Assembly: GCA_001464965.1 (NCBI GenBank)
Contig: LNEJ01000065.1
Coordinates: 4,548-68,547 of the forward strand
DNA length: 64,000 bases
DNA from: Gammaproteobacteria bacterium Ga0074134
GTDB lineage: Bacteria; Pseudomonadota; Gammaproteobacteria; Ga0077554; Ga007554
Reading direction: 5' to 3'
Shown: positions 17,247 to 17,372 of the stretch, one piece after another
Layout of the letters: every line of letters begins with the position of its first letter
How positions within the stretch are numbered: the stretch's first letter is position 1
Position numbers and translations under genes: made by a program
The notes under the pieces: model-generated
What the model was told of the DNA's origin: nothing
The model's database searches: none
What the model saw: only the letters and a program-made list of their open reading frames with translations

Positions 17247-17372
17247 TTCACGATCTCGATCAAGGGATGCAGTGCAAGGCAAAAATAGCCGAAAAAGCGC
17301 AGCATACACGTAGTATGTGAGCACAAGAGGCTATTTTTAACGCCGCGATGCACCCTTCAGCGAGATCGTGAA
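17247..17372. repeat. MITE-like element, copy B (complete, 126 bp).
   Basis: Terminal inverted repeats ttcacgatctcg / cgagatcgtgaa. Internal gcagcatacacgtagtatgtgagca. Sits immediately 3' of lpdA. Confidence 0.7.

What the first reader, a model, noticed from the sequence alone, without database searches (positions are those of the whole stretch)
17247..17372. MITE-like ~125-150 bp element with ttcacgatctcg terminal inverted repeats present in at least four copies
Copies lie at 9893-10022 (degenerate), 17247-17372 (complete), 56403-56551 (long variant with an extra agcgcagcgaagggttcccagtgcaa segment) and 62911-63021 (truncated). They share a core ...gatcaaggg...aaaagcgcagcatacacgtagtatgtgagca...ttttaacgccgc.atgc.cccttcagcgagatcgtgaa. 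All sit at gene 3' ends or between genes. Two length variants exist, which suggests a small non-autonomous mobile element family that is still reshaping gene ends (see the speA and DUF4124 findings).
Basis: seen in the sequence. Interest (0 to 1): 0.6.

Follow-up and report, generated by a model that had tools for sequence, protein, structure and literature searches.

The report
Palindromic miniature transposon family (MITE)
This is a real family of about 141-bp hairpin-shaped non-coding jumping elements (MITEs) found across nitrifying and iron-oxidising Betaproteobacteria, an ordinary kind of element but apparently an unnamed family, and the "gene-end reshaping" seen here probably comes from 44-49 bp deletions peculiar to this assembly.

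Summary
The repeat is real. The window holds five copies, not four (nhmmer E 1e-33 to 1e-43).

It is a MITE. It has about 20-nt terminal inverted repeats (GA[A/G]CCTGTTCA[C/A]GATCTCG) and a 3-bp TNA target duplication at a C|TNA|G target. Its modal length is 141 bp. The body is a conserved quasi-palindrome that folds into one hairpin (-73 kcal/mol, z -10.8), and 19 of 45 pairs show compensatory changes.

It occurs in at least 27 assemblies (Gallionella, Nitrosomonas including a N. europaea isolate, Nitrotoga). Two orthologous sites are empty in relatives. Many copies sit exactly on a stop codon, which the duplication regenerates.

The "degenerate" copy (9882-10039) is a complete sister type with different ends and a 4-bp CTAA duplication.

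No transposase partner was found. An IS5-family enzyme is inferred from the duplications only.

The three "truncated" copies, including the speA fusion, differ from otherwise 100%-identical public assemblies only by 44-46 bp deletions. Deletion sizes track the assembly, so I judge them probably artefacts. Ongoing reshaping of gene ends is not shown.

The parts
22886..23027 (-). Intact type-A element, 142 bp. TIRs are GAGCCTGTTCAATATCTCG / CGAGATATTGAATAGGCTC. TTA duplications lie at 23028-23030 and 22883-22885. It sits between a 111-aa ORF and sucA.
   Evidence: It folds into one hairpin of -72.9 kcal/mol, z -10.8. It is identical in six sister contigs.
17240..17372 (+). Type-A element (the finding's coordinates). 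The left TTA duplication is at 17237-17239. The right tip is absent: 12 nt of TIR, the TTA and 29 nt of flank. It lies between the convergent cytochrome c and lpd genes.
   Evidence: L001, L003 and L008 carry a complete 140-bp element with TTA on both sides and 44 more bases. JGI contig L002 has a different, 25-bp gap at the same end.
56396..56552 (+). Type-A element, long variant with an internal insert (AAGAGCGCAGCGAAGGGTTCC). The left TTA is at 56393-56395. The right tip is absent. The speA ORF (56469..58403, minus strand) runs 27 codons into it.
   Evidence: In L120 and L121 the element is complete and its TAA duplication is the speA stop codon. The window lacks 45 bp (10 codons, the stop and 12 nt of TIR). 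The orthologue in L098 ends ...GLHGYTYLEE-TGA with no element.
62914..63018 (+). Type-A element with the right 36 nt absent. The left TTA is at 62911-62913. It lies between two DUF4124 paralogues and is 99% identical to 17237-17323.
   Evidence: L132 has the complete element, and its TAA duplication is the stop codon of the middle DUF4124 gene. The window lacks 46 bp.
9882..10039 (+). Complete type-B element, 158 bp. It has the same core with the long-variant insert, but different TIRs (TCATGCTGTGTCACAAAGCG ... TGCTTTATGGCACAGTAGA). The 4-bp CTAA duplication is at 9878-9881 and 10040-10043. It lies between divergent folB and plsY.
   Evidence: The type-B class has 34 hits in the loci, and the 4-bp duplication is the best parse (38 of 63 detections; CTAA and TTAG dominate).
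62341..62368 (-). Solitary type-B-like end (TCCTGCTGTGTCATAAGCCGATCAGAGG). It starts directly after the TAA stop codon (62369-62371) of the 156-aa DUF4124 gene and is followed by a REP-like palindrome.
   Evidence: 2 matches in the window against 0.01 expected.

Best explanation

Shown:
- About 20-nt terminal inverted repeats.
- A 3-bp TNA duplication at a C|TNA|G target.
- A modal length of 141 bp.
- Many dispersed copies in many genomes, and orthologous sites that are occupied in one genome and empty in another.

Inferred:
- A DDE transposase of the IS5 family, encoded elsewhere, binds the two ends. It is probably the IS1031-like type with a 3-nt target for type A, and an IS5-group-like YTAR type for type B.
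- It cuts the target with a 3-nt (or 4-nt) stagger and integrates the element.
- TAA and TGA (TTA and TCA on the other strand) are valid TNA targets, and the duplication rebuilds the stop codon. Insertions exactly at stop codons are therefore harmless and accumulate at gene 3' ends.

Shown for the body:
- It is a conserved quasi-palindrome of about 100 bp whose pairing is kept by compensatory changes.
- It occurs with at least three different sets of ends.

Why the pairing is kept is not settled. It could be hairpin-templated correction, a requirement of transposition, or an RNA-level role.
For: Repeat family:
- Five copies in the window, E down to 6e-43.
- 151 hits in 119 loci from 27 assemblies of Gallionella, Nitrosomonas (including N. 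europaea ATCC 25978), Nitrotoga and Nitrosomonadales MAGs.
- 63 hits in one MAG, many at contig ends.

Duplication and target:
- A 3-bp duplication is the best parse: 42 of 64 detections are identical (each copy is detected on both strands, so about 32 copies). The middle base agrees in 42 of 59 against 20.5 expected. TTA, TAA, TCA and TGA all occur.
- Flanks give C (19/29) TNA G (19/29).

Empty sites:
- L064 has a single TAA where L045 carries the element, with 88% identical flanks.
- The speA orthologue in L098 has no element.

Stop codons:
- 12 of 29 full copies have an ORF of at least 60 codons whose stop codon is the duplication.
- speA and DUF4124 in the sister contigs show the same.

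Shared ends:
- The same TIR plus TNA flanks unrelated bodies of 45-535 bp in metagenome contigs (L151, L140, L145, L149, L147). The ends therefore look like the mobile determinant.

Hairpin:
- -72.9 kcal/mol, z -10.8.
- Across 31 copies, 96.6% of cells are paired.
- 19 pairs have double changes against 8.7 +/- 1.7 in shuffles (0 of 500) and 4-10 in slid controls.

Literature:
- A 3-nt target is a feature of the IS1031 group of the IS5 family (PMC2516522).
- IS5-family TIRs such as GAGACCTTTGCAAAA (ISNme1; PMC4596501) resemble the tip GAGCCTGTTCA.
Against: - No autonomous element with these ends was found in the window, in about 0.9 Mb of fetched loci, in viral contigs, or in a targeted metagenome scan. 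The transposase family is inferred from the duplication and a resemblance in the TIR tip.
- The only intact IS in the window belongs to the IS1380 family and has unrelated ends.
- No insertion polymorphism was seen among public assemblies of this same strain, so current activity is not shown.
- Conservation of the body with exchangeable ends is not what a simple deletion-derivative MITE predicts.
Confidence: 0.85

Rival explanations
1. The conserved hairpin body is the functional unit. It would be a structured RNA or a host-factor-binding module, for example an mRNA 3'-end stabiliser, an RNase target or an attenuator. It is kept by selection, and the transposon ends are only its vehicle.
For: - The body of about 100 nt is conserved between type A and type B. 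Its central 72 nt are 76% identical in a Halomonas element with different ends and a TTAA duplication.
- Covariation is strong in the internal helices, not only in the TIRs: helix 3 has 7 of 10 pairs with double changes.
- G-U cells outnumber A-C cells 103 to 19 on the modelled strand (counted).
- Many copies lie in 3' UTR positions.
Against: - There is no orientation bias relative to the upstream gene: 6 against 7 stop-codon insertions.
- No Rfam match appears at gathering or at E < 10, apart from a spurious miRNA hairpin.
- No terminator-like or promoter-like site lies inside the element.
- Copies also sit in 5' and divergent regions.
- Arm-to-arm covariation in a quasi-palindrome can arise by template-switch correction without selection.
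- The G-U excess is partly two fixed pairs (47 cells) and partly due to choosing the structure on this strand.
Confidence: 0.25
2. The three truncated copies, and the 49-bp gap in the neighbouring family-2 element, are real and recent deletions. They would be caused by hairpin instability or by one-ended transposase cleavage followed by end joining. On this reading the family really is reshaping gene ends in this strain.
For: - All three type-A deletions straddle the same (right) terminus of copies in the same orientation. The oppositely oriented copy is intact.
- Junction microhomology is 0-2 nt, as in end joining.
- Long palindromes are known to be deletion-prone (general knowledge).
- An assembler built on exact k-mers should not invent junctions.
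Against: - The window has 0 SNPs against the public assemblies over the 64 kb compared.
- The NCBI MAG, four ENA assemblies and several Logan assemblies all carry the complete allele.
- The deletion-allele proteins are on record nowhere.
- Sizes cluster by assembly: 44, 45, 46 and 49 bp in the window, against 25 and 30 bp in the JGI contig at two of the same sites, each exactly 19 bp shorter.
- The affected copies share long exact repeats with each other: a 56-nt run between the lpd and DUF4124 copies.
Confidence: 0.3
3. It is a REP/REPIN-type element moved by a RAYT (Y1) transposase rather than a DDE-type MITE.
For: - The element is palindromic, intergenic and high in copy number.
- The genome does carry GTAG-headed REP-like palindromes at 62312-62344 and 29906-29985.
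Against: - The element has clear target duplications of fixed length, about 20-nt TIRs and no GTAG head.
- REPINs make no duplication (general knowledge; PMC2817692 for REP/RAYT).
Confidence: 0.03

Closest known systems
Bacterial type II MITEs with IS5-family ends (e.g. Neisseria ATR / ISNme1, Porphyromonas BrickBuilt / ISPg1; PMC4596501)
   Same: - Small, non-coding and intergenic, with TIRs whose tip is GAG(A)CCT...
- The body is unrelated to any transposase gene.
- Mobilisation in trans is presumed.
- Filled and empty sites occur between relatives.
   Different: - Here the duplication is a strict 3-bp TNA (type A) or a 4-bp YTAR-like sequence (type B).
- The whole body is a conserved quasi-palindrome.
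- No partner IS with matching ends has been found.
- There is no sequence similarity beyond the TIR tip.
ERIC / IRU elements of Enterobacteriaceae and Vibrionaceae
   Same: - An imperfect palindrome of about 127-141 bp that folds into one long hairpin.
- Intergenic, often in transcribed 3' regions.
- Length variants arise from internal insertions.
- The central motif resembles GGAG.TTACAT.AAGTAA.TGA (from memory of the ERIC PCR primers; not a test).
   Different: - There is no detectable similarity by blastn to 5,426 E. coli genomes.
- The host range is different.
- ERIC is reported to duplicate TA (from memory), not TNA.
Correia / NEMIS elements of Neisseria
   Same: - A palindromic MITE of about 100-155 bp found in another betaproteobacterial group.
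- Length variants exist, and copies lie next to genes.
- Effects on mRNA processing are reported for that family (PMC10969869).
   Different: - Correia elements duplicate TA and have 26-nt TIRs of unrelated sequence (from memory).
- No IHF-site match of any quality is present here.
Betaproteobacterial repeat element BRE (PMC3110155)
   Same: A small repeat found in several Betaproteobacteria, mostly intergenic.
   Different: BRE is about 90 bp and 69% G+C. It often occurs in tandem arrays (a VNTR), and no TIR or duplication is described. It is found in Alcaligenaceae and Comamonadaceae. It is not the same element.

Membership tests
MITE (prokaryotic) | Small (about 50-1000 bp) and without a transposase gene | tested here: met
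   The modal length is 141 bp, and variants run to about 200 bp. The body is a hairpin with no room for a transposase.
MITE (prokaryotic) | Terminal inverted repeats | tested here: met
   The TIRs are 19-20 nt, GA[A/G]CCTGTTCA[C/A]GATCTCG. Helix 1 is 95.4% paired across 31 copies.
MITE (prokaryotic) | Target-site duplication of fixed length | tested here: met
   Type A: 3-bp TNA, 42 of 64 detections identical; the middle base agrees in 42 of 59 against 20.5 expected. Type B: 4 bp, 38 of 63 detections, mostly CTAA or TTAG.
MITE (prokaryotic) | Multiple dispersed copies; occupied and empty orthologous sites | tested here: met
   There are 151 hits in 27 assemblies. L045 is occupied where L064 is empty. 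The speA site is occupied in L120 and empty in L098.
MITE (prokaryotic) | An autonomous IS with the same ends that supplies the transposase | tested here: inconclusive
   None was found in the window, the fetched loci, viral contigs or a targeted metagenome scan. Whole genomes could not be searched.
IS5-family-dependent element (IS1031-like for type A) | 3-nt (TNA) target duplication | tested here: met
   A 3-nt target is a feature of the IS1031 group according to PMC2516522.
IS5-family-dependent element (IS1031-like for type A) | Ends matching those of a named IS5-family IS; mobilisation by its transposase | not testable with these tools
   Only a resemblance in the TIR tip to GAGACCTTTGCAAAA (ISNme1; PMC4596501). 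There was no access to ISfinder and no experiment.
REP / REPIN (RAYT-mobilised) | GTAG-headed short G+C-rich palindrome, no target duplication | tested here: not met
   The element has no GTAG head and does make duplications. Separate REP-like repeats exist elsewhere in the window.
ERIC / IRU | Sequence similarity to the ERIC consensus | tested here: not met
   No blastn match at E <= 1 in 5,426 complete E. coli genomes.
Any Rfam RNA family | Score at or above the family's gathering threshold | tested here: not met
   Only two tRNAs are found in the window. On the element, only a 22-bit miRNA-hairpin match against a threshold of 68.

The most novel reading that the evidence does not exclude
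The hairpin body of about 100 bp is a portable module in its own right. It has been coupled to at least three different sets of transposon ends: a 3-bp TNA type, a 4-bp YTAR type and a Halomonas TTAA type. It is conserved across Beta- and Gammaproteobacteria because it does something, for example acting as a structured 3'-UTR or DNA hairpin that benefits the element or the host. On this reading it is a cargo hairpin carried by several transposases rather than inert filler.
Probability: 0.25. Interest if true: 0.6.

Novelty: new member of a known kind. Interest (0 to 1): 0.35.

Why it matters
**Annotation.** This family breaks assemblies; many copies in one MAG sit at contig ends. It can also create false gene-end variants in MAGs of nitrifiers and iron oxidisers. 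Knowing its consensus, ends and target (C|TNA|G, often the stop codon) lets annotators mask it and treat nearby indels with suspicion.

**Biology.**
- It is a clear example of a MITE that accumulates exactly on stop codons, because its duplication rebuilds them.
- Its body is conserved while its ends are exchangeable. That makes a simple question testable: is the hairpin selected, or self-correcting?
- The presence of a copy in cultivable Nitrosomonas europaea gives an experimental handle.

Tried and rejected
- **Searches for the autonomous partner.** I looked for fuzzy TIR pairs 0.2-3.5 kb apart in all loci. I scanned viral contigs: 5 of 6 hits were chance matches in coding sequence and one was a MITE. 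I scanned metagenome contigs for the TIR without the MITE subterminal GGG: 12 loci, none with a transposase ORF. All were negative.
- **IS1380-family IS in the window (3125-4592).** Rejected as the partner, because its ends are unrelated and it makes a 5-bp ATAAA duplication. The ISAs1-like transposase next to the DUF4124 genes in L132 lies outside the window and was not pursued.
- **ERIC relationship.** Rejected at the sequence level.
- **BRE.** Rejected on the published description.
- **Rfam.** Nothing.
- **Promoter or terminator inside the element.** None by consensus scan.
- **IHF site (WATCAANNNNTTR) in GATCAAGGG...** A poor match by eye, so dropped.
- **5-bp CTNAG duplication as an alternative parse for type A.** Only 11 of 64 detections.
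- **Literature.** Searches for the TIR strings returned only unrelated primers. No paper naming a MITE in Nitrosomonas or Gallionella was found.
- **Plasmid database.** It gave only the Halomonas core match and a weak Proteus hit.

Full report
**Observation**

A repeat scan showed a fifth copy on the minus strand at about 22880-23033 (families D5 and I1-I14). A profile built from the copies finds exactly five places in the window, with E = 6e-43 to 5e-33. Chance is excluded.

**Anatomy**

The minus-strand copy is the only intact type-A copy in the window. It reads TTA | GAGCCTGTTCAATATCTCG ... CGAGATATTGAATAGGCTC | TTA and spans 22886-23027 (142 bp).

I scanned one genome per species for a 24-nt core pattern. 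They come from 27 assemblies of Gallionella, Nitrosomonas, Nitrotoga and other Nitrosomonadales MAGs, a few Methylococcales MAGs, and the isolate Nitrosomonas europaea ATCC 25978. One MAG alone gave 63 hits, many about 100 nt from contig ends. That is how a high-copy repeat looks in a short-read assembly.

Copies with both ends have these features:
- The modal length is 141 bp.
- A systematic test of every offset and length shows that a 3-bp duplication directly outside GA[A/G]CC is the best parse. 42 of 64 detections are identical (each copy is seen on both strands).
- The middle base agrees in 42 of 59 cases against 20.5 expected. TTA, TAA, TCA and TGA all occur.
- The flanks add C before and G after in 19 of 29 copies each, so the target is C|TNA|G.

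**Mobility**

Two orthologous site pairs are occupied in one genome and empty in another.
- Nitrosomonas MAG L045 carries a (decayed) copy where L064 has a single TAA, the stop codon of the upstream gene. The flanks are 88% identical.
- The speA gene of a relative (L098, 74% identical) ends ...GLHGYTYLEE-TGA with no element. In the public assemblies of this strain, speA ends ...GLEGYTYLEE-TAA followed directly by the element and a second TAA.

The same TIR plus a TNA duplication also flanks unrelated bodies of 45, 56, 201, 269 and 535 bp in metagenome contigs. The ends therefore look like what a transposase recognises.

**Stop codons**

In 12 of 29 full copies, an ORF of at least 60 codons ends in the duplication itself (nine of these ORFs are at least 150 codons). 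Orientations split 6 to 7. In the sister contigs of this strain the same holds for speA and for the middle DUF4124 gene. A type-B end starts right after the stop of the 156-aa DUF4124 gene.

The simplest reading is this. TAA and TGA are TNA targets, and the duplication rebuilds the stop. Such insertions are therefore neutral and survive. This is inference.

**The hairpin**

- The whole element folds into one hairpin: RNA -72.9 kcal/mol with z -10.8; the opposite strand -69.5 with z -8.5; DNA parameters -42.4 with z -9.6.
- On 31 copies from many assemblies, the consensus structure has 45 pairs, and 96.6% of cells are paired.
- 19 pairs carry changes on both sides, against 8.7 +/- 1.7 in shuffles (0 of 500) and 4-10 in slid controls.
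- The covariation is not confined to the TIRs. Helix 3 has 7 of 10 pairs with double changes.

This does not prove selection on RNA. In a quasi-palindrome, template-switch correction between arms gives the same pattern. There is no orientation bias relative to genes, no Rfam match, and no terminator-like or promoter-like site inside the element.

**A sister type and a modular body**

The largest 'truncated' class of profile hits (34, starting at model position 11) is not truncated. It has other ends, TCTTACTGTGTCACAAAGCG, and a 4-bp duplication: 38 of 63 detections, mostly CTAA or TTAG.

The window's 'degenerate' copy belongs to this class and is complete. It spans 9882-10039 with CTAA on both sides.

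The central 72 nt of the body also occur, 76% identical, in a Halomonas chromid. There they sit between yet other ends (GGAGCCTCTGATTAAC), flanked by TTAA.

So ends and body are combined in several ways. Nested-insert variants of 185-200 bp are common.

**Transposase**

None with these ends was found. The IS at 3125-4592 belongs to the IS1380 family (NF033539, E 1e-75). It has unrelated ends and an ATAAA duplication.

The assignment to the IS5 family rests on three things:
- the 3-nt target, a feature of the IS1031 group (PMC2516522);
- the YTAR-like 4-bp target of type B (IS5 itself, from my own knowledge);
- a TIR tip like GAGACCTTTGCAAAA of ISNme1 (PMC4596501).

It is an inference, not a test.

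**The truncated copies**

The window is 100.000% identical, with no SNPs, to NCBI contig JALHPT010000015.1 (GCA_022842345.1), to a JGI contig and to several ENA and Logan contigs over essentially its whole length. The only differences are four gaps in the window:
- 44 bp at 17372;
- 45 bp at 56552;
- 46 bp at 63018/63019;
- 49 bp at 14698, inside a second MITE family.

Each of the three type-A gaps removes the same element tip plus 7-30 nt of flank. The speA gap removes the last 10 codons and the stop, so the ORF reads 27 codons into the element.

Several points bear on whether these gaps are real:
- The complete allele is present in every other assembly.
- The JGI contig has its own gaps at two of the sites (25 and 30 bp), each exactly 19 bp shorter than the window's.
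- The window's altered proteins are on record nowhere.
- Junction microhomology is 0-2 nt.

Sizes that depend on the assembly rather than on the site point to an artefact at repeat boundaries. I give this about 70%. Real hairpin-associated deletions remain possible at about 30%. Only the reads can decide.

Either way, the 'reshaping of gene ends' is not caused by insertion. No difference in insertion sites exists among the assemblies of this strain.

**Comparison and verdict**

This is a MITE. It is palindromic in the way ERIC and Correia elements are, but it is not related to ERIC by sequence. It is not BRE. I found no paper naming it.

It is a new member of a known kind. Two features are mildly unusual: accumulation on stop codons, and a conserved body with exchangeable ends. 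Interest is modest (0.35).

Noticed in passing
window 14604-14819 (TAA at 14601-14603 and 14820-14822); solitary arm at 58522-58550: A second MITE family. Its TIR is GAGCCTGTCTG[T/C]GAATAAATCATCCC, its duplication is TAA/TTA, and its tip (GAGCCTGT) matches type A. It is 265 bp in the NCBI contig L001. The window lacks 49 internal bp and the JGI contig lacks 30 bp at the same place.
   Followed up: partly
window 3125-4592: An intact IS1380-family insertion sequence. The 447-aa transposase is at 3236-4579 (NF033539, E 1e-75). The TIRs are CCCAGATAATCCATTAG..., and it makes a 5-bp ATAAA duplication. A roughly 120-bp remnant of a related right end lies at 49605-49723, next to two tRNA genes (49782-49855 and 49921-50011).
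   Followed up: partly
window 17046-17070, 25668-25692, about 43707-43732; also 16974-17014 vs 25707-25747: 25-26-nt perfect palindromes, GAACCTCTGAtTTAtTCAGAGGTTC. The arm resembles the TIR of the Halomonas element (GGAGCCTCTGATTAAC). They could be minimal two-TIR elements or terminator hairpins. A 41-nt inverted-repeat pair lies next to two of them.
   Followed up: no
window 62312-62344 (minus strand) and 29906-29985: GTAG-headed G+C-rich palindromes (GTAGGTTGGGTCAAGCGAAGCGGACCCAAC). At 29906-29985 two of them lie in inverted orientation. They look like REP/REPIN sequences. No RAYT gene was looked for.
   Followed up: no
L013, L028, L036, L040, L059, L088 and others (MAG JACREB01); L030, L062: Many type-B copies carry the same insert of about 46 bp (GTGGGTCAAGCAGGGATGGGCGGCTTGCCGTTGCCGCCCAACTCGC) in the central loop between CGAA and AAAAGCGGAG. 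Two type-A copies carry a different insert of about 65 bp at the same point. The loop appears to be a hotspot for nested insertions.
   Followed up: partly
L139 1467-1601 (Halomonas sp. PA16-9, NZ_CP040452.1, about 1107720-1107860): An element with the same central core (76% identical over 72 nt) but different TIRs, flanked by TTAA, in a gammaproteobacterial chromid. BLAST reported a second place in the same record.
   Followed up: partly
window 62560-62859 vs 63035-63334: Tandem DUF4124 paralogues, 84% identical. L132 shows three DUF4124 genes in a row, then an ISAs1-like transposase just beyond the window end. The middle paralogue loses similarity to its neighbour about 20 nt before the MITE, so its short C-terminus may be linked to the insertion.
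   Followed up: partly
window 46638-46703: A run of CATGGT hexamers (12-nt register) inside overlapping ORFs 46497..47162 (+) and 46533..47255 (-). This is probably a His/Asp- or Met/Thr-rich repeat in a protein.
   Followed up: no
window 14997-15104 vs 15393-15500, and 15145-15173 vs 15541-15569: An internal duplication with 396-nt spacing inside the 401-aa ORF at 14826..16031, a multi-domain cbb3-type cytochrome c according to the sister-contig annotation.
   Followed up: no
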